64,000 bases of DNA, taken from the IMG/VR virus record IMGVR_UViG_3300043466_001759, positions 1-64,000 of that record. One strand, given 5' to 3'. The position numbers and the translations under genes were made by a program. This document shows positions 4,790 to 40,088 of this stretch, piece by piece; within the stretch, counting starts at the first letter, position 1, and every line of letters starts with the position of its first letter. The DNA comes from a virus. Below the pieces are notes generated by a model. That model saw only the letters and a program-made list of their open reading frames with translations, was not told the DNA's origin and searched no databases.

Positions 4790-5614
4790 ATGTTTGATAG
4801 CAACGGGTTTGAAATTAAATCTTGCGGTCGATGTGGCGGATCAGGCAGGCACTCGTACTGCGAGAGATACGGTGATCGATGCTTCGAATGTGGCGGAAAA
4901 GGAAACGTTTTCACTAAGCGAGGCGCTGAGGCTCACCGGTTCTTTTCGGATCTTTTCGAGGTTCCTATCGAGACGATCAAAGTAGGTGATTGGGTAAAGC
5001 TTACTGGCTACACAAAGGCGAAAGTCTTAGCAGTCAAGGAAAGCATTCAACGCGGATCATCGAATGGTGTTCCTTACGAGTCGCCGGTTGTCGTGTTGAC
5101 TATCAACACTTCCACAGGACTTCTTCACTCCTCTAACTTCAAAGGATCGACAGTCAAGAAGCTCGAGAGTGAATCGATTCATGCCGAAAGGTTGGTCGCG
5201 GCGATGGAGTATCAAGCGACGTTAACCAAGCAGGGAAAGGTCCGCAAGGTTCGAAAGCCTGTTGTGTTGCTCGACCTCGACAAGTTCCTTACTGGATACA
5301 TCGAATGTGCGCTGTGGTCATCAACCGATGATAACGATGAGCCATTGGACTTGTATGACGAAGACGACATCGATCCAACGGTGCTCGAGACAATGAGAGC
5401 GGACTGCCAAGACTTCATCAAGTCTAACGCAAAGCTGCTTAACGGACTGGACGCTGCACAATGTGGACATGACTTCTGGTTAACCCGCAACAGGCACGGC
5501 GCTGGGTTCTGGGATCGAGGCCTTGGAGATGTTGGTCAACAGCTCACTGAGGCATGTCGACCATACGGCGAATTCAACCTCTACGAAGCTGAAGGGGTGA
5601 TCCATGGCCAGTAA
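4790..5614 (+). CDS. Phage protein with N-terminal CxxCxGxG zinc finger and C-terminal GHDFWLTRNxHGAGFWDR domain
   Basis: CGRCGGSG and CFECGGKG repeats (DnaJ-like Zn finger); conserved-looking C-terminal motif. Confidence 0.75.
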   Translation: MFDSNGFEIKSCGRCGGSGRHSYCERYGDRCFECGGKGNVFTKRGAEAHRFFSDLFEVPIETIKVGDWVKLTGYTKAKVLAVKESIQRGSSNGVPYESPVVVLTINTSTGLLHSSNFKGSTVKKLESESIHAERLVAAMEYQATLTKQGKVRKVRKPVVLLDLDKFLTGYIECALWSSTDDNDEPLDLYDEDDIDPTVLETMRADCQDFIKSNAKLLNGLDAAQCGHDFWLTRNRHGAGFWDRGLGDVGQQLTEACRPYGEFNLYEAEGVIHGQ

Positions 5615-8513: not shown

Positions 8514-8774
8514 ATGGAAAACGAATTAACACCAGAACAGCAACTCGATGCGGCATTGCACGCGGACCTGGAAACCAAAAGGATTATCGATAGATACATC
8601 AGGGCTGAGAAGGCATTCGAGGCAGCTACCGCAGAATGGAACGCCGCGTGCACTGCGATGCGTGAGAATCTTGGGAAGGATGCTCAGTTTGTCGCTAGGG
8701 TTGATTTTGTAACATACCTAGTGAGAGCGAATGCAGGTGCATTTACTGTCGAGAAGGTCAAGGTACTTCACTGA
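8514..8774 (+). CDS. Hypothetical protein
   Basis: GGAG RBS, 86 aa. Confidence 0.7.
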   Translation: MENELTPEQQLDAALHADLETKRIIDRYIRAEKAFEAATAEWNAACTAMRENLGKDAQFVARVDFVTYLVRANAGAFTVEKVKVLH

Positions 8775-8857
8775 CATCGAGACAGCTGGAACACGAGGGC
8801 ATTGAAAACAGTGCCCGACTGTTCACGCTAAACCGATTCAAACTAAGGAGAGTTGTT

Positions 8858-8983
8858 ATGTTGAAATGGATTTTGACTTTGGCAGTTGTGTTGTTCTGTG
8901 GATGCGCAGGACAACGAACACGGATCACACTAACGAGGGTTCATGGCGAACCATCAATCAGTATCGAGCTTGAGGAACGATAG
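8858..8983 (+). CDS. Small putative lipoprotein (41 aa)
   Basis: TAAGGAG RBS; MLKWILTLAVVLFCG/CAGQR signal peptide with lipobox-like cysteine; below the ORF-track cutoff. Confidence 0.65.
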   Translation: MLKWILTLAVVLFCGCAGQRTRITLTRVHGEPSISIELEER

Positions 8984-8987
8984 GAAA

Positions 8988-9197
8988 ATGAGCGACAGAA
9001 ACACTACTGAAAAAAAGACATGCGAATGCGGCAGGGTATCAACCTATTTCGTGTCCCCTAACAATGGCAAAAAGCTGTTGCGAGGCTTTTGCGACTCATG
9101 CTACGAAGATAGATGCCGCAGAGAATCCAACAAACGGCTGGACAGGATCCAGAAGTTTAGAGATCGCAATCAATACGACAGGGAAGATCAATCCTAA
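8988..9197 (+). CDS. Small zinc-finger protein
   Basis: CECG...CDSC; start refined. Confidence 0.6.
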   Translation: MSDRNTTEKKTCECGRVSTYFVSPNNGKKLLRGFCDSCYEDRCRRESNKRLDRIQKFRDRNQYDREDQS

Positions 9198-9206
9198 AGA
9201 ACTAAT

Positions 9207-9379
9207 GGCTTGTCACGGCAATGCCAGTCTAGGCGGGATAAGTCCTGGCGTGACGTGGCAAGGCAAGGCAAGGCAAGGTTTCATGCATCGGCTGAAAAGT
9301 CGGTGCGTGGATTTACTGCGGCCCGGCGAGACGGAGCAAGTCGCGATCGGGCATGGCGTAGCATGACGAGGCAAGGTTT
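9207..9379 (+). ncRNA. Pentamer-periodic guide-like array block A (units 1-2)
   Basis: In-phase 5-mers ggctt gtcac ggcaa tgcca gtcta ggcgg gataa gtcct ggcgt gacgt ggcaa x4 ggttt; hairpin 9282-9309; second unit 9310-9379 ending ggcaa ggttt. Confidence 0.85.
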
Positions 9380-9446
9380 CAACTGCTATCAGCGAGGCAG
9401 TTTTTAAGTTCGCTGAAACATGGTTTTGTGCGTTAAGGATTTCAGT

Positions 9447-10004
9447 ATGAAGAAGGCAATTTGCAAATTACAGTCAGTCAGTCCGTATTCTCAATCGAGG
9501 TACATCCAAGAGAAAAGAACGCGAGACGAAACGCCAGCAGCGTTCGAAGAGCGATCCTGGAAGCAACGGTGCCATTGGAACGAAAATGGCAATCTTTACA
9601 TTCCTCCAATGTCGTTCAAAAACTGCTTGAGTGAAGCAGCAAAATACAAATCCATTCAGATCCCAGGAAAGGGAAAGTCGACATACACCAAACACTTCGA
9701 GGCTGGGATTCTTGTTGTCGAGCCTCTAGTTCTCGACATTACGAAAGACAGTATCCAACACGAATGGCTGCACGTCCCCTCTGACGGCAAGCGTGGAGGA
9801 ACAAAGCGTGTTGAAAAGTGTTTTCCGTTGATTCAGTCTTGGTCTGGCACTGTCGAGTTCTTGGTGTTGGATGAGACTATCACTGAGGATGTTTTCACAG
9901 CACACCTCCAAGACGCAGGGAGCTTTATTGGTATCGGTCGCTTCCGTCCGCGTAACAACGGCTTTTACGGTCGTTTTGAGGTAAAGTCGGTGAGTTGGAA
10001 ATAA
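9447..10004 (+). CDS. Stand-alone Cas7/RAMP-like RNA-binding protein (VIPR-like effector candidate)
   Basis: LYIPPMSFKNCLSEAA resembles the RAMP IPGSSxKG motif; C-terminal Gly-rich loop GIGRFRPRNNGFYGRFEV; TAAGGA RBS before ATG 9447; flanked by the periodic arrays. Confidence 0.8.
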   Translation: MKKAICKLQSVSPYSQSRYIQEKRTRDETPAAFEERSWKQRCHWNENGNLYIPPMSFKNCLSEAAKYKSIQIPGKGKSTYTKHFEAGILVVEPLVLDITKDSIQHEWLHVPSDGKRGGTKRVEKCFPLIQSWSGTVEFLVLDETITEDVFTAHLQDAGSFIGIGRFRPRNNGFYGRFEVKSVSWK

Positions 10005-10007
10005 TCC

Positions 10008-10447
10008 GGCAGGGTTAGGCTTTGCGCGTCGCGGCTCGTTGCGGCGTTGTGCGGCAAGGCAAGACAAGGTTTCATGCATCAGCTGAGAAGTCGGTGCATG
10101 GATTGACCTCGGCACGTCTCGTTGGTGCAGGGCAGGGCCCGGCGTGGCGCGGCTAGGCAAGGCAAGGCAAAGTTTCACATCTGAGGCGAATAGGCTCAGG
10201 TGTGAATTGACCGTGGCACGGCGAGGCATGTTATGACTCGGCGCGGCAAGGCAAGGCGAGGTTTCCTATCTGGGGCGAATAGGCCTAGGTAGGGATTGAT
10301 TAGGGTTTGGCTGGTCGGATCACGACAGGTCGGGGCTCGGCTAGGTAAAGCAAGGCAAGGTTTCACAGCTGGAGCGAACAGGTCCAGCTGTGGATTGGAC
10401 TCGGCATAGTAGGCCGAGGCGGGGCGTGGTAAAGCAAGGCAAGGACT
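10008..10447 (+). ncRNA. Pentamer-periodic guide-like array block B (units 3-7)
   Basis: Five phased 5-mer tracts (10008-10072, 10101-10175, 10205-10264, 10294-10363, 10393-10447) separated by hairpins at 10073-10100, 10176-10204, 10265-10293 and 10364-10392. Confidence 0.88.
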
Positions 10448-10470
10448 TTTTTACAAAGGGAACAAAGGGA

Positions 10471-10947
10471 ATGTTATTTGAAAAATCATCAGACACAAAG
10501 ATCTTAGAGGACACGCTTAGGCAGGTTGCAGTAGGTGACATGGCCACTTACGAAAACCTGTCAAAAGCAATTGGAAGGGACGTTCGAACGTTTGCGATCG
10601 CTGCACTACGTACAGCCCGACACGGACTCATTAAGGAAGGGTTCGTGTTCGGCGTCGAGCAGAATGTCGGACTCGTCAGGCTTAACTCTACAGAGATCGT
10701 CAAGAGCACAGAAATGGATCGAAAGTCGGTGCATCGAAAGGTTAATCGCACACTCAGCAAACTAAGCGTTGCGAAGTACGATGAGCTCGATGACGAGAAT
10801 AAAAGAAAACACGTCACGATGTCAGCGCAGATGGGTGCTCTGGCGATGTTTTCAGCGAAGACGGCAACCACGAAGATTGAATCTAAAGTCACTGGCGACT
10901 CGAAAGTATTGCCAGTCGGCGAAACACTGAAATTGTTTGGTGGGTAA
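10471..10947 (+). CDS. Array-embedded accessory protein, putative N-terminal winged HTH
   Basis: GDMATYENLSKAIGRDV...ALRTARHGLIKEGFVFGVEQNVGLVRL resembles a wHTH; the upstream ORF extension is array sequence. Confidence 0.7.
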   Translation: MLFEKSSDTKILEDTLRQVAVGDMATYENLSKAIGRDVRTFAIAALRTARHGLIKEGFVFGVEQNVGLVRLNSTEIVKSTEMDRKSVHRKVNRTLSKLSVAKYDELDDENKRKHVTMSAQMGALAMFSAKTATTKIESKVTGDSKVLPVGETLKLFGG

Positions 10948-10956
10948 ATACAACAC

Positions 10957-11170
10957 GGCGGGGTTGAGCCGGGCGAGTTAAAGCCAGGAGCGGTGCAGTA
11001 ACGCAAGACAAGGTTGCTTGTCGTGAGCGAATAGGTCACGACAAGTATTACGCATGGCACGTCTTCACTTGAAACGGCGGGGCGATGCGAGGTGGAGCGT
11101 GTCGGAGTAAGTCTCGACAGGTCGCCACAAGGCAAGGTTGCTTACCACGAGCGAACAGGTCGTGGTAAGC
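10957..11170 (+). ncRNA. Pentamer-periodic guide-like array block C (units 8-9)
   Basis: Tracts 10957-11016 and 11046-11140, each followed by a 10-11 bp hairpin with a GCGAAYAGG loop. Confidence 0.85.
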
Positions 11171-11199
11171 ATTTATAGATCTCAATCGGAAAGAACACG

Positions 11200-11829
11200 A
11201 TGGCTAACGTTACAACAACCGACAAGATTCCAGCGTTCTACACACTGGAGAAGATTTACGAGTCGATCGATAAAGTTAACGACAGCTGCGCCGATGGACA
11301 GCGAATTGATTTCTGGATTGCTGGGGGATCCGTTAGCGATCTGGCCAGAGGGAGGCGATTTAAGGACATCGACGTGTTCAGCCCTAAGCCTGTGGAGCTA
11401 GTTGAAAAGCTCTCTAGAGCCTACGGAAAACCGTATTCAGAGATCGTTGGAATGTTTGCTAACTTCCGATTGGGAAAGCATACGGTTCAAATCATAACTG
11501 GATACACACCAGCAAGCGAAGACGAAGTAATCGAGCTATTTGACTTCACAGCTGTTTGCGGGGCGTACTCACCCGATAGATTCGTATGCCACGAGAGATT
11601 CTGGCAAGACAACTGCACGAGGCGATTAGTGATCAATAATTTACCAAAGCCTCTATCGACACTAGATCGATTGGCTAAGTACTGTCGCAAAGGCTTCAAG
11701 CACTGCCCTGTCGGGTTGTCGCGAGTCATAAAAGCCATCGCAGCTGAAAACATCGACTGGGACAACCCTAGTCAAAACATAATCAACTTTTACCCAAATG
11801 GCCACATACGGTTTTTTGGGATCGATTAA
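11200..11829 (+). CDS. Nucleotidyltransferase (Pol-beta superfamily, CCA/poly(A) polymerase head-like)
   Basis: IAGGSVSD...KDIDVF catalytic motif, FDFT, RLAKYxxKGF. Confidence 0.8.
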   Translation: MANVTTTDKIPAFYTLEKIYESIDKVNDSCADGQRIDFWIAGGSVSDLARGRRFKDIDVFSPKPVELVEKLSRAYGKPYSEIVGMFANFRLGKHTVQIITGYTPASEDEVIELFDFTAVCGAYSPDRFVCHERFWQDNCTRRLVINNLPKPLSTLDRLAKYCRKGFKHCPVGLSRVIKAIAAENIDWDNPSQNIINFYPNGHIRFFGID

Positions 11830-11861
11830 TCAACGCTTTATTTTTATTGAAAGGGAAACCA

Positions 11862-12353
11862 ATGCTTGTATTAGGAAGAAAAGTCGGAGAGTCAATCACT
11901 ATCAACGGCGATACCGTGGTAACAGTAAAGAAGCACAGCAGCAAGATCTTTTTGGCGATCGAAGCTCCCGATGACGTATCGATCAAACGAACAGAATTAC
12001 TAACCATAAAAAGAGACGATGAAACAGATATCAAAGCTATCTTACGATTGGATTGTCGCTCTCAGGAATTCCCTAGCGAAGAATGGTTGCAGTCACTCGG
12101 ATTTGTTATCAACGAATCTGAGCATGCTCTTTTTGCTACAGCATTACTGGACGACTTCTCGGGCAATTGCCATCCTGCGCGTGTCGAGCTCAGGCTTATG
12201 CTTTTTGCCGATCAGACTGACGAGTGGGTCACTGACGTTGTGTCATACGATGCAAGTGGGACTGCGTCTTCAGTTGGTCTGGTAAACTCCTGGTGCAAGA
12301 CCAAGGCTGATGTCATTCGACTTGGCAAAGCCCTCGGTCTTAAAGCTTGGTGA
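11862..12353 (+). CDS. csrA: CsrA-like carbon storage regulator domain fused to an unknown C-terminal domain
   Basis: MLVLGRKVGESITINGD...LAIEAPDDVSIKRTEL matches the CsrA consensus. Confidence 0.8.
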   Translation: MLVLGRKVGESITINGDTVVTVKKHSSKIFLAIEAPDDVSIKRTELLTIKRDDETDIKAILRLDCRSQEFPSEEWLQSLGFVINESEHALFATALLDDFSGNCHPARVELRLMLFADQTDEWVTDVVSYDASGTASSVGLVNSWCKTKADVIRLGKALGLKAW

Positions 12354-12416
12354 GTAGAGGAGCCTGCGGAACCGTCTCTTGAGTATCCTAAAAACACACT
12401 GGAGCTACAAGACTGT

Positions 12417-12659
12417 TTAGAACGCATCCGAAACAGCTAATGCTTGTTGCGCCTTAGTCGGCACCCAATCATAGGGAATCAACCCATTTGGCAATCTGAC
12501 TGCAATACCATTGATTCGCCTGCGAACGTACAGATGCTCTATGATTGATCCGTTATTCAGCTCTTTGATGCCGACATCCTCAGGCTCACCAAAAAGTATG
12601 TTTCGCCTTCCATCGATTGGGCCTCCAACAAATTCGGCAGGTGCACTATTCATCATCAA
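12417..12659 (-). CDS. Hypothetical protein (FVGGPxDG motif)
   Basis: 80-aa ORF. Confidence 0.6.
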   Translation of the reverse strand: MMMNSAPAEFVGGPIDGRRNILFGEPEDVGIKELNNGSIIEHLYVRRRINGIAVRLPNGLIPYDWVPTKAQQALAVSDAF

Positions 12660-21625: not shown

Positions 21626-21651
21626 ATCAACCTCCTGAAAACAAAAACCAG

Positions 21652-21726
21652 TGGACGGACAGGACTCGAACCTGCCTCTGCGACATCGCCCAACAGTCGC
21701 CGCTAAACCATCTCAGCTACTCGTCC
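21652..21726 (-). tRNA. Degenerate tRNA / tRNA-like element with an 11-nt anticodon loop
   Basis: GGACGAG TA GCTG-AGATGGTT-TAGC G GCGAC-TGTTGGGCGAT-GTCGC AGAG GCAGG-TTCGAGT-CCTGT CCGTCC A. Confidence 0.65.
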
Positions 21727-21733
21727 GCTTGTC

Positions 21734-37400: not shown

Positions 37401-40088
37401 GCCACGAATCTGAGCTGTCCTCTCCTTGTCCTCGACAAAACTGCCGTTCTGCATCTTTCCGACACGAACGACTGGAGCCCCTCCACGAGGATGCCAAGCA
37501 TTGTCCAATACGGACTTGTTGACTCCCCTTCCTCCACTCCAGTCTCTTACTCTCGCTGAGTAGTTCTTCCATATCTTGGAACCGAGGCCTTCACCGCCAG
37601 TTGCTCGCCCTGTACTGTCGACCAGCCCAGCACCTTCTGACGTTGTCCATGGATGAGACATGCCGCTAATCATCACGGTAGTGTCGCCATCCTCAAACCC
37701 CATGCCTCGCATCTCTTTTTCCAAGCTCGAGACGCCCTCAATGGTTCTCTTTTCACCAATCAAGTTACTCTTAGATCTTTCGTACTGGTCTTTATACCGA
37801 GCGTCACTCTTTCTTACTGGACCACCCTCAGAGCCTTTAAACAACTCTTGACGTTTCGACTCTATCTCATCTTCTGAGAGCTGATAGGAGTCTGCCGCAG
37901 GAACATCCTTTGCATCGGACGACTTCGCAGCCGACTCAGCCGGAACAGAGGCCTTCTGACTTGGGAACGCCGTTCTTGCCTGTTCCCATTGCTCTCGCCT
38001 TTGATTCTCGTCTGGTGCTTGCGATGCATTGGAGTCATCACCAAAGATGATCTCTGACCACTGCTCGGGACTAGGTGCACTTTCTAAGCCAGCAAATTTC
38101 CGACGTATCTTGTCATACTCTTGCTTGTCTGATGGGTTATCAAACACTGGCTCTTCCTGCTTAGCTACTGACGTTGCGTCAGCTGGCTTTGATCCTGTGC
38201 CTTCACTCGAAGATCGCTGTAGCTCCTCTCCTCCGTCCTTTACTTTCTGATACACATTCCTGGCTGCATCCATACTTGAATGCTCGCTGGAATAGATCTG
38301 CTTACCACTCCCAGTTTCAACAGAACGAACTACCCACTTCTTTCCGTCTTCAGACTCAAAGAGCTCGTGGCGAACACCATTGTCAAGTTCTGTGATTTCA
38401 TCAAGCTTCTTTGCTGGCTTTCCGGCGATCGACACCTTCTCGTCACCGCCGACTGCATCACTTAGCGGCTGGCTTACTGGCTGACCGGTAGGAACAGGCC
38501 CTACTTGGCTTTCGGCCTGGGCTGCTTCTTCTGCGACTGGCTGGACTTCTTGCCTGCCTTGGGCTTGGATTTCCCCGCCTTGAGGCTCGCTTTGGGGTCG
38601 TACGGCATTCTGTTCTCCTTGGTCGACTTCTGGTGGACCAGCAGGCAATGACTGATCAGACGAAGCCTGAGAGGCCCTGTCATTTATGAGTTTCTGTCCT
38701 GCCTCCCACTGCTCTCTCCGGACATTTGCATTGGGAACTGTCTTGTCATCACGAAGACCGGGATCACCCAGTACGATCTTAGCCCACTCGCTACGGCTTG
38801 GGGGCTCTTTAAGGCTTCCTATCTGAATCGATATGTCATCTATTTTTTGTTGGTCTTCAGGACTTACCTCATCAGCCGATTGTTTTGCAACAACCTCTGC
38901 GTCGTTTCCAGTATTGACGTCACCAGTCGGAGCAGGCGACTGGCCGACTGGCGCGATTGCGACCCCTTCAGCAGGCAGCTGATCAACCACTTGATCGTCA
39001 GGAACCTTCCTTCCTGTTCTTTTACCGACAGCGGCAGATAATCCACTTTGTGCACCACTGATTACGCCACCACCTAAAGCACCCGCAGCCGACGCTTCGA
39101 ACCATTTCATCCAGGTTTCTCGATCCGTAATCTTGTGATTCGGATCAACTATCTCTGCATTTATGCTCTGCAGCATCTCCTGGAAGCCCTCCTGGACGCC
39201 TTCCGAGCCAGAGCTCTTTACAGCGTCCCACAGATAAGCAGCTGCCGCTTTATTCCCAGATTGCTTTGCTATTTCGCCAGCGCCTATCTTGTTGATGAAT
39301 TTCATCAAAGACGGGGTCGCTCCAAATGCAACTTCGGATGCTCCAGATACTTGACCTAACAACAGTGCTGTAAAAGGACTGTCGATACCCTTCTCTCTTT
39401 GTTCGCCATACATGCCACCGCCTTCATGTAAAGCTGTGACCTGCTGGGAGGCGACTGCACCGCCAGCCTTTTTAGCTAAAGAATTGTAAACAAGCTTCTT
39501 GGCGGATTCCTCTGCAACTTCTTTTGTAGCTCCTCTGATTACATACTCTTTAGCTATGTCCGCGATCTTTTTCTTAATTGCTGTTTTTCCAAGAAAGCCA
39601 GTGATAGCACCGACAGGAACAGTAGCAACGTCAGCAGGATCAGGACCAGGAACCAACATAGAACCCGCTGCTGCACCAACGATCCCAGTACCAACAGATT
39701 CTGCTATAGATGGAGCTAACTCCCCTAGAGTACCAGCTGCCCATGTTGCCATGTTTCCAGGGCCTGCCATAGCACCTGTCTTTTCATCAGTAGAAAAGAA
39801 GTCTGTGACTGTCTTTGGGTTTTCAGACGCCTGCTCCATTTCCTTCTGATATTTTTTGAAACGTTCTCTAGCTGCAGATTCATTGCCCATTGCGGAGTGG
39901 TACGCGGCAATACCACCGTGATAGGTAGCCTGCGTCTGGTCGATGCCTCGCAGCAAACCTCGATACGCTTCGCTTCTGTTTTTTAAGTTGTCTTGAGTTC
40001 TTACCGCAGACTCTCTCTTGATCCTCATCAAAGAAAGTTGGTCAGCGAACTCTCCGTCGTCCATAACATCAACTTCAGGTGTTGCCAT
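25500..40088 (-). CDS. Giant polyvalent internal virion (ejection) protein, 4862 aa
   Basis: Hydrophobic Gly/Ala N-terminus; HEAFH zincin motif; TMDLWWSR; HDAFGH; GNAT-like block; two ART-like FKKWFGD...YHGT...GYDGV...KSATxNxGxFD domains. Confidence 0.9.
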   Translation of the reverse strand: MATPEVDVMDDGEFADQLSLMRIKRESAVRTQDNLKNRSEAYRGLLRGIDQTQATYHGGIAAYHSAMGNESAARERFKKYQKEMEQASENPKTVTDFFSTDEKTGAMAGPGNMATWAAGTLGELAPSIAESVGTGIVGAAAGSMLVPGPDPADVATVPVGAITGFLGKTAIKKKIADIAKEYVIRGATKEVAEESAKKLVYNSLAKKAGGAVASQQVTALHEGGGMYGEQREKGIDSPFTALLLGQVSGASEVAFGATPSLMKFINKIGAGEIAKQSGNKAAAAYLWDAVKSSGSEGVQEGFQEMLQSINAEIVDPNHKITDRETWMKWFEASAAGALGGGVISGAQSGLSAAVGKRTGRKVPDDQVVDQLPAEGVAIAPVGQSPAPTGDVNTGNDAEVVAKQSADEVSPEDQQKIDDISIQIGSLKEPPSRSEWAKIVLGDPGLRDDKTVPNANVRREQWEAGQKLINDRASQASSDQSLPAGPPEVDQGEQNAVRPQSEPQGGEIQAQGRQEVQPVAEEAAQAESQVGPVPTGQPVSQPLSDAVGGDEKVSIAGKPAKKLDEITELDNGVRHELFESEDGKKWVVRSVETGSGKQIYSSEHSSMDAARNVYQKVKDGGEELQRSSSEGTGSKPADATSVAKQEEPVFDNPSDKQEYDKIRRKFAGLESAPSPEQWSEIIFGDDSNASQAPDENQRREQWEQARTAFPSQKASVPAESAAKSSDAKDVPAADSYQLSEDEIESKRQELFKGSEGGPVRKSDARYKDQYERSKSNLIGEKRTIEGVSSLEKEMRGMGFEDGDTTVMISGMSHPWTTSEGAGLVDSTGRATGGEGLGSKIWKNYSARVRDWSGGRGVNKSVLDNAWHPRGGAPVVRVGKMQNGSFVEDKERTAQIRGVLEEALNFSQAKPSDKKSTDTTSAPKESKKSMGRENKLNAKSSESVPPPSKTGSTPPLLPKSATPPPLKQRTSSGDKSPAQVEAKSSDAVSVEPVRNQEDKDAPQTKRGGDPSEVQTEERREGQTNAQTKAEGQVSPEKPEGQATAGTPSSDSSSSKQKEAPKPPARPKRDSNEASKPKEESRKKAVAEKYLNELSPGQREAIAKSLTESLGTEVTVNDLVNNPGLVDAIVAISPARKSKTKPKKAASSRNRQAAKEDVPKQLGNVTLVSSEELSDDEKQQVKILDKMGVSMRFVNGRDLSLPGLFRPSTMTIWINRNYVTNMNRERGENSKWMTWGLFAHEAFHAMKVGNPEAWNQLYNWVSKHESSKEQDGLKKAGEDYIGDFDRELLSSVRADIKRSGKAVDVDKDVSGQDLLKAALKAGLKYDIFNKDGSLKEKGDLSQKTKDLSDFINEFNSNEDIRQEESLSRYLEDRAGDFDFWNELGNSKPGLLAKIGRWLRKALRFAEPDTLAGQVRLAIESAMESNGISPSSGGRASPARSSENQDSEASRVAEIRESARSATPDEHDALIAIANKHSKRDFVKSDITPSRIKNLKSNGLVVGSKLTPEGLDRLRSWDKKRKQAIAREAKLAGVDPDMAVYGLRVEKNKPWLLTEDIISNGIDTSLIPQDLEARSDSQKNNLKRTKWDVAQWLQSLYKKASGHSLSPNSKHSKSAKARMANQLAKEALHALKMDWAEGAIGWYNEKVTGALDHMADIFPEIVAPGKHQMMFKAALAISSDGQDVLPNFRMAVEIYERWKKTGTLSGWGHRSGVESSLDTMDKLVKKFGWERVEAFLATPLTAAQLSKHGFTVEDGIDPSISISKESFKVGGELVTARVYGSMIFGAKIGSFYNNLNYRFDTITMDLWWSRTIGRLRGKLESVNVENAQKSIDNGLRKNLSDKYLKKFGMSREDVARNDRAALRYARMLKSHNASVFTSTAISSYVSAIKKADELGSIENGSIQQFAPVDPSKLNANEKKFYGQLSEKIGNSKVAGKVSSESIAGMARDAIARRTEVNTTEFKAAKNVVVNAYGLYEIAKSGKDREVQREVAELAIKQVKEVIGKDITKADFQALMWYYEKELWGKLGLSKEIEKLDYEQAAKKVSQEHRASKRDGRRESISSGQRVSPEATGRAQSTVQSGEDAGSGRELDGGEYAGSGADGTRAGVGRQRPESAGDGRGRKDLRKNSPLAGSPSVPGINGPDPEVVAVAERYAKENGIDLKRQAEYVQVDPERAKRIADAYEQMAHAPQDPKVKAAYKELIRQTTAQYKALEDAGYKFWFMDLNVPSNAEYASSPYNALRDLRQNKQMGVFPTSDGFGTSDLDVNDNPLLEDTGIKWPSGGLDGQMKPVTANDLFRAVHDAFGHSLEGAGFRARGEENAWQAHVRLFTGDAVGAITSETRGQNSWLNYGPHGDKNRTAKVEDTTFADQKTGLMPEWTWTEGRAADYSETTDRESTDGTTEKDGSEDRSRKTRERAAVAKRSGREATATIRSRVGSNGRAWSRSEESRTLGGYGVVATYEADAAEWADVGVAAPSFVELQKSEKSASQFTAAINAARESQGKLGASVYVYPEQDYRDMRLFLTEDGKAGFALKDSGEAGVVDIVSVFNTANNAHRGVSYSMMRLAVEEGGNTLDAFDTFLPVLYSANGFRVISRAKWSDEFAPSGWSKEEYSDFNNGEPDVVFMAYDPQRTDIYRHNSGEGKAFDDIDEAVRSQRSAAIENATALDSRDLNSGLRYAIARPELAKELDKGETVTLYRAMTMIDGNLYPPMSSKINDGKKLSLRKPEPVGKWMVAEERPDLVPKTGKYAGKFPLKKPKGTTWAAYAPYFHASPIPLNDQFTASWYNDGVKRPKMVIVEVEVPASEMTSGYQAEGSSKKVGSNKWTAGVVASKLPGGREVVLSRYLRIKRIVPDAEVAKKIADIVNPSRLSIPENTVTPQLRAELEKNGVRISPKGTKGESIRYSPSRQVDSPAFKKWFGDWENDPENSSKIVWNGQPLSLYHGTKRDFNVFEGKAKTSTDGGYYGKGYYFTTDSEGAGRYAGRGDGSRILEVYVDIKNPAIINDTYRDNTADALSMSGGKLDYVDAKVAKVFNDVYDGDPTSHLDPEKSIEITKRLKEAGYDGVIVNQSDLPFAEVVAFDSSQIKSATGNRGTFDKFDPDIRYSPSRQDEMFAKLMKAMEERGLAKPGQSSLPETTGTKYARTEGQRKSVGDSPREWFGPRKVKDRQKKAIAELAANPGRPYEIISEMNAKPRPLTDMEDAILNARIRELKNEGDISGSDRKEWLDLNRTVQRGHSEWGYAGHAAQAELASDFSVEGLTRQHTSHVEADPSPEQIAKYAEMAERIDKLEAETAALAEKLAKEAIARKKAEAASVPKTDPPREKIGTKRATLMKKVADGFAAFQNAWGGGSSGRAAVSRSAITNVNGFGFGTDTLPDPSTVSRDEWLRAYMPLIMKAIPESKLSDEDIAVLGTVFGDENPFKADSKLMRMFSKWTVQSDLQERNWAEGVQALFRDRSRGTRMMLEQIASESGVEFDEDRFSDPSDYKALANSFVKYLPKYVSSNPDIGSEVTNLLDASKVILDPLEYAIKAWEDAQGGAGGSQIDTAAFKKWFGDSKVVDEDGNPLVVYHGTNEKFSVFESGRTSQRSVMLSSFDVETSGFFFSPSEDDARQYGKNVLPVYLSVQNRLMDPKVIGISSRSSEEVKAASAKAFEDAEYILEPMIYEEGGKRWIDTGGGVSNTEVDSDGDWINEIFIDGMIDWHALDNPKVVERMKERGYDGVKVYEENDGSGESWFVVESSQVKSATSNTGDFDKTNPDIRYSPSRQGTDIKSAADSIVNALREMGVSSVLELESQVKANMPNVTLEQMSVIKDAWAESNSKKKVESPIGDDPEPSAIGARAKELMTLAIEAGYGATNETWREVVDVVHAQLSIEVPGISEYDTMQAMSDYGSWRPLNKEEIAVKTRAIRGKTRQSLKIEDTIKAIAQSEEWLKNGVSPEEVARRLRDQNLLPKSTGREQPTPDSIERDLIAEFNKLKKELPVSTESREGQLKSALSTAKTAGKNRLEMLSKDIEALEEAIESRTVLARSVNDRTPLKPDAELASIRSQLEAKRKQRDDLKTEYEKIFPRSKKQRMLSAEQQTQRALKAIEKLKEKLQQVKDGKEVDSTKKPSLVAAEVQSQLKMWQDRLRAARQAAAEAEQGRYDDDGGAIPAQGGRKPMTEEQRLAMAERMLQSQIDDIKADTKSLTDGTWAPAVKGKVPTSSVLESLRAQLADLRKVRDEARKASPVYQAREEAKYWERYRKGQERRLAFWEKRRDEAKSGILPVPRNKRTITEEDILDKNLEIEKIKYEAMYEIEKAKRATWNAGQWMQYGLLEATSLIPKTLMLGMELSFFLRQGFFYSRSHPVRAFMAAVEAIPAVWSQRLALASVESLESRPNAKEYLQAEVEFTKKDGPRAQLEEMYQSAVIRWLENTKTPWLLPFRAWVGAYGAFERGNRTFANIMKADLYDIQKRDTLAAREFFGTNMEWTDSDIKEAGRITNIFSGRGTGLRGGSPWLDFFFLARRWTWSRIQADFILPLQLATPSWIGQWNADRGMRVSLAKLYIQTLMGHATKMAMGYFAYSLLAGDDEEKEPTIEWDPRSSDAWVMKVGETRFKDDGGLMPAVVLASRLLTGTIKTSSGEIKSIYGEDVQYGGKTGADFLINFARYKLGTGPASILEWVSGKDAVGRNIAKEGDPLAVPKHIIGSRLTPLTWKEIAAAEKELGVVSGTLASLEAFFGVSVSTYGPRTEYSGASDEEKKELFDKDLRGMKWDDKDLAYSDSLSGSQKKQARDAQQKKKQSLVYAASANPSRKNYKSDQAYKDAVTSRDEYMKTLKKSGISMTEARRLLIEHWEDNYGSAKETKKGVVVYKEGLSLRLRQLRKVFTN

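What the first reader, a model, noticed from the sequence alone, without database searches (positions are those of the whole stretch)
11046..11140. Unit 9 dinucleotides decode to a Walker A motif when every third base is skipped
Seen: the variable dinucleotides of unit 9 are TA AT AC TT TT AC GG GA GA GG GT GG AA TC AG GC, followed by the constant tail. Read as codon positions 1-2 with a free third base, they give (Y)-I/M-T-L/F-L/F-T-G-E/D-E/D-G-V-G-K/N-S-S/R-A, e.g. ITLLTGEEGVGKS. That is a hydrophobic strand plus the GxxGxGKS P-loop. Inference: the guide recognises a gapped target NNxNNx whose skipped base is the wobble position, so synonymous changes would not allow escape, and it is aimed at a conserved ATPase motif. 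The guide has mRNA sense, so it would pair with the DNA template strand rather than the transcript. The phage's own P-loops in this window (GGKNGQGKT, PPGAGKT) do not match, which points to a foreign or host target.
Basis: partly seen in the sequence, partly recalled or inferred. Interest (0 to 1): 0.9.

Follow-up and report, generated by a model that had tools for sequence, protein, structure and literature searches.

The report
Phage VIPR guide RNA reading a P-loop
This stretch is one of nine guide RNAs of a phage VIPR system, an RNA-guided DNA-silencing system described in 2026, and its variable bases most likely spell the ATP-binding loop of a rival element's gene, although no such target gene was found.

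Summary
Only the first two pairs (TA, AT) fall in a 10-nt linker, not in the repeat tract.

The locus is a VIPR system, a kind of system already published in 2026 preprints.
- The ORF at 9447-10004 is a homologue of the SUSP1 Vipr protein (profile E 6.9e-9) and has a Cas7-like fold.
- Nine vrRNAs flank it and a conserved winged-helix-like neighbour gene.
- Each vrRNA ends in a covarying 10-bp hairpin.

The published rule is that the NN pairs bind DNA, every third target base is skipped, and the skipped base is usually the codon wobble.

The Walker A reading (T-[FL]-[FL]-T-G-[DE]-[DE]-G-V-G-K-S-[SR]-A) is unlikely to be chance. P is 7.6e-4 in shuffles of the nine guides, and it is the only case among 216 related guides.

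No natural target was found in the phage itself, in viral contigs or in metagenomes. The best extended match was 24 of 28.

Verdict: a new member of a known kind, with a plausible but unproven target.

The parts
9207..9316 (+). vrRNA unit 1: 14 GGY/NN pentamers, then a tail hairpin with a GAAA-type loop
9320..9405 (+). vrRNA unit 2: 11 pentamers, then a different, terminator-like hairpin (9381-9402) with a T-rich run
9447..10004 (+). vipr gene (185 aa read from the ATG at 9447; the longer ORF starts at 9420)
   Evidence: phmmer hit to PDB 36pp_D, SUSP1 Vipr, E 1.1e-5; profile E 6.9e-9; AlphaFold2 pLDDT 93.8; Foldseek hits to Cas7, Csm3 and Cmr4, best E 2.1e-7; homologues begin at the equivalent Met
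10008..10107 (+). vrRNA unit 3
10111..10210 (+). vrRNA unit 4
10215..10299 (+). vrRNA unit 5
10304..10398 (+). vrRNA unit 6
10398..10453 (+). vrRNA unit 7: 9 pentamers, no hairpin tail, ending in ACTTTTTT
10471..10947 (+). candidate vap accessory gene (158 aa) with a winged-helix-like N-terminal half
   Evidence: a homologue lies next to vipr in 61 of 117 related loci; AlphaFold2 pLDDT 90.3 with a1-b1-a2-a3-b2-b3 topology; only weak Foldseek hits, E 0.019 or higher, to GntR, MarR, MecI and H1 domains
10957..11045 (+). vrRNA unit 8
11046..11055 (+). 10-nt linker TATTACGCAT after the unit 8 hairpin, equivalent to GATTGACNNN elsewhere.
11056..11125 (+). guide tract of unit 9: 14 pentamers with NN = AC TT TT AC GG GA GA GG GT GG AA TC AG GC. 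The Walker A core comes from 11076-11115
11126..11140 (+). constant end of the repeat tract, CACAA GGCAA GGTTG. All arrays of the clade end in ...CAA GGCAA GG
11141..11169 (+). tail hairpin of unit 9: 10-bp stem and 9-nt loop GCGAACAGG at 11151-11159

Best explanation
Unit 9 is a vrRNA, one of nine guide RNAs of a VIPR (Viral Interference Programmable Repeat) system carried by an uncultured phage of 72.9 kb. By analogy with the solved SUSP1 system, Vipr protomers (gene at 9447-10004) polymerise along the RNA, one per pentamer. They hold each GGY-like scaffold triplet and present the two variable bases. These bases pair with two bases of double-stranded DNA, skip one, pair with the next two, and so on. 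The bound filament blocks transcription.

Read by that rule, the 14 guide dinucleotides of unit 9 (11056-11125) most likely match codon positions 1 and 2 of the strand-plus-Walker-A segment T-[FL]-[FL]-T-G-[DE]-[DE]-G-V-G-K-S-[SR]-A. The gene would be a P-loop NTPase in a foreign element such as a rival phage, satellite, prophage or transposable element. Neither synonymous changes nor most amino-acid changes would then let the target escape.

Shown here:
- the repeat anatomy;
- the Vipr homologue and its fold;
- the conserved neighbour gene;
- the covarying tail hairpin;
- the absence of a self-target;
- the statistical rarity of the motif.

Inferred from the published systems:
- expression and processing of the RNA;
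- filament formation;
- the one-base skip in this clade;
- silencing.

Inferred from the decoding alone: that the target is a Walker A segment.
For: Vipr identity: phmmer E 1.1e-5 and profile E 6.9e-9 to PDB 36pp 'SUSP1 Vipr protein'. The AlphaFold2 model has pLDDT 93.8. Its best PDB folds are Cas7-type RAMPs of type VII and type III CRISPR, E 2.1e-7.

Repeat anatomy: nine arrays of 9-14 qualifying pentamers lie only at 9207-11140 on the + strand of the genome. Over 254 unique arrays (4,104 pentamers) from this phage and related loci, position 1 is G in 86%, position 3 is C in 86% and T in 12%, and positions 4-5 are near uniform.

Tail: 98.6% of cells are paired, 9 of 10 pairs show compensatory changes, and 0 of 500 shuffles reach this.

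Accessory gene: a homologue lies next to vipr in 61 of 117 related loci.

Published rule: one-base skip, wobble alignment, targets on both strands, and a 9-16 repeat range (papers as listed in the report).

Motif rarity: P values as given in the observation check.

Natural sequences carrying the core exist and are mostly real P-loops. Of 72 metagenome loci with an exact ACNGGNGANGANGGNGTNGGNAANTC, 48 lie in frame in stop-free stretches of at least 100 codons with Lys at the K position. The 10 loci I scanned fell in AAA_16+GerE, AAA_22/MuB-like (phrog_296), DnaA-like initiators (phrog_5484), Prim-Pol+AAA_25 and nSTAND3, with some unassigned.

Precedent: a SUSP1 vrRNA reads codons of a recombinase active site (section 6).
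Against: No natural target was found.
- The 9-dinucleotide core gave 0 hits in viral contigs.
- A 12-dinucleotide pattern gave 0 hits in metagenome contigs.
- Among the 72 core hits the best extended match is 24 of 28. After conditioning on 18 exact bases, that is about what chance gives.
- The two half-patterns in viral contigs gave 42 and 16 loci, with a best match of 22 of 28 and no P-loop at 80% or more.

The one-base skip showed no enrichment over 0, 2 or 3 skipped bases in this clade, on the 0.86-0.94 Mb I held.

Three of the first four scaffolds of unit 9 are poor GGY (GTC, CAC, GAA). The residue aligned with SUSP1 D177 is Arg here.

Each dinucleotide allows one or two residues, only one of nine units gives a recognisable motif, and the motif was picked after looking.
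Confidence: 0.7

Rival explanations
1. Unit 9 is a genuine VIPR vrRNA, but the Walker A reading is a coincidence. Its real target is some other sequence: non-coding, in another codon phase, or on the other strand.
For: No target carrying the full guide was found in any collection. The motif was chosen after inspection, and each NN allows one or two residues. Guides of this clade are rich in G-starting dinucleotides (GC 9.8%, GA 7.6%, GT 5.9%, GG 5.7%). Published targets also include non-wobble and non-coding sites (says 'most', not all).
Against: The strict motif has P 7.6e-4 for the nine guides and 0.009 for all 216 guides. A T-[FL]-[FL]-T strand precedes it, as in real P-loop proteins. Of the 72 natural occurrences of the core, 48 are in-frame P-loops.
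Confidence: 0.2
2. Unit 9 is a degenerate, inactive or decoy vrRNA. It could be a relic with decayed 5' scaffolds, or an RNA that diverts a rival's Vipr, as satellite-borne solo vrRNAs do.
For: Scaffolds 2-4 are GTC, CAC and GAA. Unit 9 is the last unit, lying beyond the vap candidate. Solo and decoy vrRNAs are described in 10.64898/2026.10.15.759431 (abstract).
Against: Its constant end and tail hairpin are intact and covary with the other tails. Internal degeneracy of vrRNAs is reported as frequent. The sequence is identical in contigs of three other lake-water runs (records 8, 20 and 27).
Confidence: 0.07
3. The pentamer tracts are not guides. They would be periodic protein-binding RNA, like the TRAP sites (triplets with 2-3-nt spacers) or a CsrA sponge, with the NN bases as neutral spacers.
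For: A constant triplet plus a variable pair is the TRAP-site layout (recalled, not from a call). A CsrA-like gene lies at 11862-12353 (Pfam E 8.6e-12). This was my working idea.
Against: The adjacent conserved gene is a Vipr homologue. The CsrA-like and nucleotidyltransferase-like genes are found in 0 of 117 related loci, against 61 of 117 for the vap candidate. The same GGY/NN layout is experimentally shown to be a guide in SUSP1 and P. fulva.
Confidence: 0.03

Closest known systems
VIPR systems (Viral Interference Programmable Repeat): SUSP1 and Pseudomonas fulva prophage, type II (bioRxiv 10.64898/2026.04.26.720920 and 10.64898/2026.04.26.720927)
   Same: A small RAMP-fold Vipr protein. 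vrRNAs of GGY/NN pentamers (9-16 repeats) with a structured constant 3' tail. vrRNAs lie on both sides of vipr on the same strand. An adjacent small gene is predicted to bind DNA. The system is phage-borne and has no self-target.
   Different: Only distant sequence similarity to SUSP1 Vipr (E 1e-5 to 7e-9). The scaffold here is G-N-Y rather than strict GGY. The tail is a simple 10-bp hairpin with a conserved 9-nt loop, not the pseudoknot described for the SUSP1 clade. There are nine vrRNAs rather than four. The host is unknown. I could not assign one of the seven published types because the supplementary data are closed.
SUSP1 vrRNA4 against the F5 satellite recombinase (bioRxiv 10.64898/2026.10.15.759431)
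   Same: A guide whose read positions fall on codon positions 1-2 of residues in an enzyme's catalytic core, so that escape would damage the enzyme.
   Different: That target is known, conserved over 119 satellites and tested experimentally. It is 6 units long. Here the guide has 14 units, the motif is a P-loop, and the target gene is unknown.
Cas7 backbone of class 1 CRISPR effectors (type VII, Csm3, Cmr4)
   Same: The fold (Foldseek E 2.1e-7), and the principle of a protein filament on a guide RNA that breaks pairing at regular intervals.
   Different: No CRISPR array, no other cas genes, and no spacer-repeat layout. Pairing is 2 of every 5 guide bases to 2 of every 3 target bases, instead of 5 of 6.
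Non-canonical VIPR arrays such as GAC/NN (bioRxiv 10.64898/2026.10.21.760802)
   Same: Relatives of this phage carry GAC/NN (15 loci) or GTC/NN (6 loci) scaffolds next to a Vipr homologue.
   Different: That preprint reports the patterns from a language-model survey. I saw only passages found with 'find' and cannot say whether this clade is among its clusters.

Membership tests
VIPR system | Vipr protein: a minimal RAMP (RRM core, glycine-rich loop, thumb) homologous to described Vipr proteins | tested here: met
   phmmer E 1.1e-5 and profile E 6.9e-9 to PDB 36pp SUSP1 Vipr, including the G-loop GxGxxRPR...GRF. The model has pLDDT 93.8, with best folds Cas7, Csm3 and Cmr4.
VIPR system | vrRNA: tandem 5-nt units with a conserved GGY-like triplet and hypervariable NN, 9-16 units | tested here: met
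   Nine arrays of 8-16 units. Over 4,104 pentamers, G is 86% at position 1, Y is 98% at position 3, and NN is near uniform. Position 2 is G in only 53%, so the consensus is GNY.
VIPR system | Constant structured 3' tail after the repeat tract | tested here: met
   Seven of the nine units share GGTT(T/G)C plus a 10-bp hairpin. 98.6% of cells are paired, 9 of 10 pairs are compensatory, and 0 of 500 shuffles reach this. Unit 2 has a different hairpin and unit 7 has none.
VIPR system | vrRNAs in the intergenic regions flanking vipr, with an adjacent vap accessory gene | tested here: met
   Units 1-2 lie upstream of vipr, units 3-7 between vipr and ORF 10471-10947, and units 8-9 after it. That ORF is conserved next to vipr in 61 of 117 loci. 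Its winged-helix reading rests on topology and weak Foldseek hits only.
VIPR system | vrRNAs are expressed as roughly 100-nt RNAs and bind Vipr | not testable with these tools
   Not testable here: I had no transcript data for this phage (details under Tried and rejected).
VIPR system | Target recognition by the one-base skip rule (NNx) | tested here: inconclusive
   No guide of this phage or its relatives found a target above shuffled controls at any of 0-4 skipped bases. This covered the own genome, 0.86 Mb of related loci, and 216 guides against 0.94 Mb. The held sequence is far too small to be decisive.
VIPR system | No self-target at 80% NN match or more | tested here: met
   For unit 9 the best own-genome match is 21 of 32 at a one-base skip, equal to shuffled guides. 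For units 1-8 at a one-base skip only unit 2 (16 of 20) and unit 8 (13 of 16) touch 80%, which their shuffled controls also reach.
CRISPR-Cas class 1 | CRISPR array of direct repeats and spacers, with further cas genes | tested here: not met
   Tandem and repeat scans show only the 5-nt tracts. Neighbouring ORFs give no Cas families. Rfam gave no hit.
TRAP-type or CsrA-type periodic protein-binding RNA | A cognate TRAP or CsrA protein conserved with the repeats, and GAG/UAG or GGA core motifs | tested here: not met
   A CsrA-like gene is present in this phage but in 0 of 117 related loci that carry the arrays. The core is GNY, not GGA or NAG.

The most novel reading that the evidence does not exclude
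Unit 9 is a motif-directed guide. By reading only codon positions 1-2 of a Walker A box (TG[DE][DE]GVGKS), one vrRNA could silence a whole class of replication or transposition ATPase genes in many unrelated rival elements at once. The MuB-like, DnaA-like and Prim-Pol/AAA_25 families all carry this core in nature. The phage's own ATPases have drifted out of range (15 of 28). That would make VIPR guides broad-spectrum weapons aimed at protein motifs rather than at single genes.
Probability: 0.2. Interest if true: 0.6.

Novelty: new member of a known kind. Interest (0 to 1): 0.35.

Why it matters
The locus adds an environmental (lake-water) phage clade to VIPR. This clade has many vrRNAs per genome, a relaxed GNY scaffold and a simple hairpin tail. 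The clade is large: 141 viral-contig stretches and 20 genome-contig loci encode the Vipr homologue.

If unit 9 really reads a Walker A box, it would be a second, independent case of a vrRNA aimed at catalytic-core codons, after the published recombinase case. It would also be the first aimed at a motif shared by many protein families. That raises testable questions about how many mismatches VIPR tolerates and how a phage avoids silencing its own and its host's ATPases.

The result also shows that the gapped code can be recovered from raw sequence alone. The principle itself, however, is already in print.

Tried and rejected
TRAP-like or CsrA-sponge reading. This was my first idea (triplet plus 2-nt spacer; CsrA-like gene; a weak Anti-TRAP Pfam hit, E 0.0042, below cut-off, for ORF 4790-5614). 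I dropped it after the Vipr hit and the lack of conservation of the CsrA-like gene.

G-quadruplex reading. I rejected it by inspection, because many scaffolds have a single G.

Similarity and family searches. Rfam gathering search of the window gave 0 matches. blastn of 8900-12400 against the phage collection gave no match.

Target searches.
- Window: 0 hits.
- Viral contigs: searches gave 0 hits. Searches gave 42 and 16 loci, with a best match of 22 of 28.
- Metagenome contigs: one search gave 0 hits. One search gave 72 loci, with a best match of 24 of 28 in L138. That ORF has no clear family.
- Own genome at 0-4 skipped bases.
- Related loci.
None exceeded the controls.

The phage's own SbcC-like ATPase family as a possible target. 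Its P-loop shares the GK[ST]-S-A ending with the decoded guide.
- Three close viral relatives match 15-16 of 28.
- The 120 listed homologues carry FLVGG[AKRE]NG[QV]GK[ST]SA, and at most 9 of 14 residues are compatible.
- Of the 147 proteins newly added by the representative search, 143 had a readable P-loop and at most 9 of 15 residues are compatible. Asn is nearly invariant where the guide needs Asp or Glu.
I rejected this family as the target.

Sequencing runs. All 18 listed holders are DNA runs, 17 labelled lake water metagenome and one labelled metagenome, and no RNA holder is listed. Laying four runs showed identical contigs over unit 9 and no variants, so nothing was learned about guide turnover or expression.

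Promoter and terminator scan of 8700-12500: counts were no higher than in shuffles.

Supplementary files of the preprints are closed. Data S3 and S4 of 10.64898/2026.04.26.720920 (natural targets and type assignments) may bear on the type of this locus and on whether P-loop targets are already listed.

'Not in print'. The words Walker, ATPase and P-loop occur 0 times in the main text of 10.64898/2026.04.26.720920 and of 10.64898/2026.10.15.759431. I did not run that word search on the other two preprints. The search for vrRNA, vrRNAs and 'Vipr protein' found 9 papers, of which 6 were listed.

Full report
OBSERVATION. The region 9207-11175 of the window holds nine units on the + strand. Each unit is a run of 8-16 pentamers whose first three bases are semi-constant (consensus GGC, also GTC, GAC, TGC, AGC). 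The last two bases of each pentamer vary freely. The run always ends in ...CAA GGCAA GG. In seven units this is followed by TT(T/G)C, a hairpin and a 10-nt linker (GATTGACNNN or a variant).

Two details need correcting. First, the periodicity in the RNA is 5, not 3. Second, the first two pentamers (11046-11055) are the linker that follows every hairpin. The guide proper is therefore 14 pentamers (11056-11125), and the decoded I/M (and Y) should be dropped.

WHAT THE LOCUS IS. My first working idea was a TRAP-like or CsrA-binding periodic RNA, because a CsrA-like gene lies at 11862-12353. That idea fell when the ORF between units 2 and 3 matched a solved structure named 'SUSP1 Vipr protein' (PDB 36pp; phmmer E 1.1e-5). 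A profile of 28 homologues raised this to E 6.9e-9, with the glycine-rich loop aligned. An AlphaFold2 model (pLDDT 93.8) finds Cas7-type RAMPs of type VII and type III CRISPR effectors as the best PDB folds (E 2.1e-7). The fold library ends on 2026-04-08 and holds no Vipr entry. Homologues start at the Met equivalent to 9447, which gives a 185-aa protein.

THE LITERATURE. A search led to three 2026 preprints on VIPR. In 10.64898/2026.04.26.720920 I read the outline, all of Results, Methods sections 20, 26 and 27, and passages. In 10.64898/2026.04.26.720927 I read the outline and Results part 1. In 10.64898/2026.10.15.759431 I read the outline, sections 6 and 17, and passages. They describe:
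- a phage-borne minimal RAMP protein;
- vrRNAs of 9-16 YNNGG repeats with a constant structured tail;
- recognition of double-stranded DNA in which each NN pairs with two target bases and one target base is skipped;
- skipped bases that mostly fall on codon wobble positions;
- targets on either strand;
- transcriptional silencing of rival satellites, prophages and phages;
- no self-targets.

ANATOMY AND CONSERVATION. The Vipr homologue is widespread. Of 150 pattern-matched stretches in viral contigs, 141 encode a relative, and 80 were kept. Of 101 stretches in genome contigs, 20 encode a relative, mostly in metagenome-assembled genomes of many phyla and some cyanobacteria. Pentamer arrays flank the gene in these loci, on the gene's strand.

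Over 254 unique arrays (4,104 pentamers):
- position 1 is G in 86%;
- position 2 is G in 53% and A in 29%;
- position 3 is C in 86% and T in 12%;
- positions 4 and 5 are close to uniform.

The tail hairpin of seven units forms a 10-bp helix with 98.6% of cells paired. Compensatory changes occur in 9 of 10 pairs, 0 of 500 shuffles are as good, and slid controls give 26-37%. G-U pairs place the RNA on the + strand. Unit 9 as RNA folds with z = -4.9, dominated by this hairpin.

ORF 10471-10947 has a homologue next to vipr in 61 of 117 loci. The nucleotidyltransferase-like ORF (11200-11829) and the CsrA-like ORF have none. The model of ORF 10471-10947 (pLDDT 90.3) has a winged-helix-like topology in its first 70 residues, but Foldseek gives only weak hits (E 0.019 or higher). 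It is a reasonable vap candidate, no more.

IS THE WALKER A READING MORE THAN CHANCE? The strict pattern GxxGxGK[ST], written in dinucleotides, occurs once among 216 guides of 10-30 dinucleotides, and that one is unit 9. Under different nulls:
- within-guide shuffles of the nine guides of this phage give it in 7.6e-4 of trials, either sense;
- draws from pooled dinucleotide frequencies give it in 5e-5;
- draws over the whole set of 216 guides give it in 0.009.
The looser GxxxxGK[ST] gives P 0.02 for this phage, with 0.16 (sense) plus 0.06 (antisense) expected over all 254 arrays. The decoded strand T-[FL]-[FL]-T before the glycine fits a P-loop beta-strand. Allowing for the many motifs a reader might have noticed, I put the chance explanation at about one in five.

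TARGET SEARCH.
- The 9-dinucleotide core gave none in viral contigs.
- A 12-dinucleotide pattern gave none in metagenome contigs.
- The 9-dinucleotide core gave 72 metagenome loci.
Of those 72, 48 lie in frame in stop-free stretches of at least 100 codons with Lys at the key position. The remaining 24 are short frames or have Asn at that position.

I scanned 10 of the 72 against Pfam and an overlapping 10 against PHROGs. They fall in AAA_16 with a LuxR-type domain, AAA_22 / 'DNA transposition protein' phrog_296, 'DnaA-like replication initiation protein' phrog_5484, Prim-Pol with AAA_25, and nSTAND3. Some have no family. Natural near-matching sequences therefore exist and are P-loops. However, the best match over the whole guide is 24 of 28 (L138), and 16 of the 72 reach 23 of 28 or more. 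That is what conditioning on 18 exact bases plus a hydrophobic strand would give.

Two half-patterns in viral contigs gave 42 and 16 loci, with a best match of 22 of 28 and no P-loop among those near the top. The phage's own genome gives 21 of 32 at best, the same as shuffled guides, at every skip length from 0 to 4. Its only strict Walker A in a long ORF, in the SbcC-like ATPase, matches 15 of 28.

Because that P-loop ends in GKT-S-A, like the decoded GKS-[SR]-A, I checked the family.
- Three close relatives match 15-16 of 28.
- In the 120 listed homologues, at most 9 of 14 residues are compatible.
- Of the 147 proteins newly added by the representative search, 143 had a readable P-loop, and at most 9 of 15 residues are compatible. 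Asn is nearly invariant where the guide needs Asp or Glu.
This family is not the target.

THE SKIP RULE IN THIS CLADE. I could not verify it. Neither the nine guides against 0.86 Mb of related loci nor 216 guides against 0.94 Mb with arrays masked show more good matches at one skipped base than at 0, 2 or 3, or than shuffled guides. The amount of sequence is far too small for this to count against the rule.

HOW IT MOST LIKELY WORKS. Vipr protomers coat each vrRNA, one per pentamer, gripping the G-N-Y triplet and exposing NN. The filament scans DNA and pairs NN with two of every three bases of one strand. The stable complex blocks transcription. All of this is inferred from the SUSP1 and P. 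fulva work, not tested here.

Unit 9, with 14 read dinucleotides in mRNA sense, would pair with the template strand of a gene segment encoding T-[FL]-[FL]-T-G-[DE]-[DE]-G-V-G-K-S-[SR]-A. Reading only codon positions 1-2 of a nucleotide-binding loop leaves the target few ways to escape without losing ATPase function. The October 2026 preprint shows the same logic for a recombinase active site.

COMPARISON AND NOVELTY. The locus meets the tested defining features of VIPR: the protein, the repeat code, the tail, the layout and the absence of a self-target. It differs in detail from the studied type II systems: a GNY scaffold, a hairpin tail instead of a pseudoknot, and nine vrRNAs. Scaffold variants such as GAC/NN are already reported (10.64898/2026.10.21.760802, passages only). 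I found no mention of Walker A, ATPase or P-loop targets in the main text of two of the preprints.

VERDICT. This is a new member of a known kind. The specific claim, a vrRNA aimed at a Walker A box, is plausible (about 0.6-0.7), modestly novel and directly testable. It is unproven because no target gene was found.

No RNA run holds the stretch (this says nothing about expression). The host is unknown, so no host pangenome could be scanned. Collection scans accept exact patterns only, so a target with scattered mismatches could have been missed.

Noticed in passing
window 11862-12353 (+): A CsrA-like gene (Pfam CsrA E 8.6e-12 over residues 1-48) with a C-terminal extension of about 110 residues and no family hit. 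It lies just after the VIPR locus and is absent from 117 related loci.
   Followed up: partly
window 11200-11829 (+): A 209-aa ORF with PHROG hits to families of unknown function and a weak nucleotidyltransferase hit (phrog_1614, E 3.5e-5). It lies directly after vrRNA unit 9 and is not conserved with vipr in relatives.
   Followed up: partly
related loci L003, L009, L023, L045, L070, L073, L101, L103, L112, L114 and others; Vipr residues 15, 106 and 165 (185-aa numbering): The middle scaffold base is phage-specific: G in 50 loci, A in 15 and T in 6. Three loci with C are probably read on the wrong strand. In 8-9 of the 15 GAC-type loci, Vipr has S15G, E106L and R165F, and residue 165 aligns with SUSP1 D177 in the G-loop. 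These may be specificity determinants, but phylogeny was not controlled.
   Followed up: partly
window 9377-9405 and 10444-10453: Unit 2 ends in a different, terminator-like hairpin (9381-9402, then a T-rich run) just before vipr. Unit 7 has no hairpin and ends in ACTTTTTT just before the vap candidate. The last vrRNA of each block may carry the transcription stop or a different 3' end.
   Followed up: no
window 9256-9278 and 10127-10261 (tables 5c and 7): In the lake-water runs, other contigs share the constant GGCAAGGCAAGG end and then continue into different GGC/NN tracts or other genes. Other VIPR arrays with the same constant end therefore coexist in those samples.
   Followed up: no
window 25500-40088 (-): A single ORF of 4,862 aa fills a fifth of the genome. 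I did not examine it.
   Followed up: no
window 21650-21728 (-): tRNA-Pro (anticodon GGG), the only tRNA in the window.
   Followed up: no
window 4790-5614 (+): A 274-aa ORF with a Cys-rich N-terminus gives a weak Anti-TRAP hit (E 0.0042, below cut-off) and phrog_1915 (E 1.4e-28). Function unknown.
   Followed up: no
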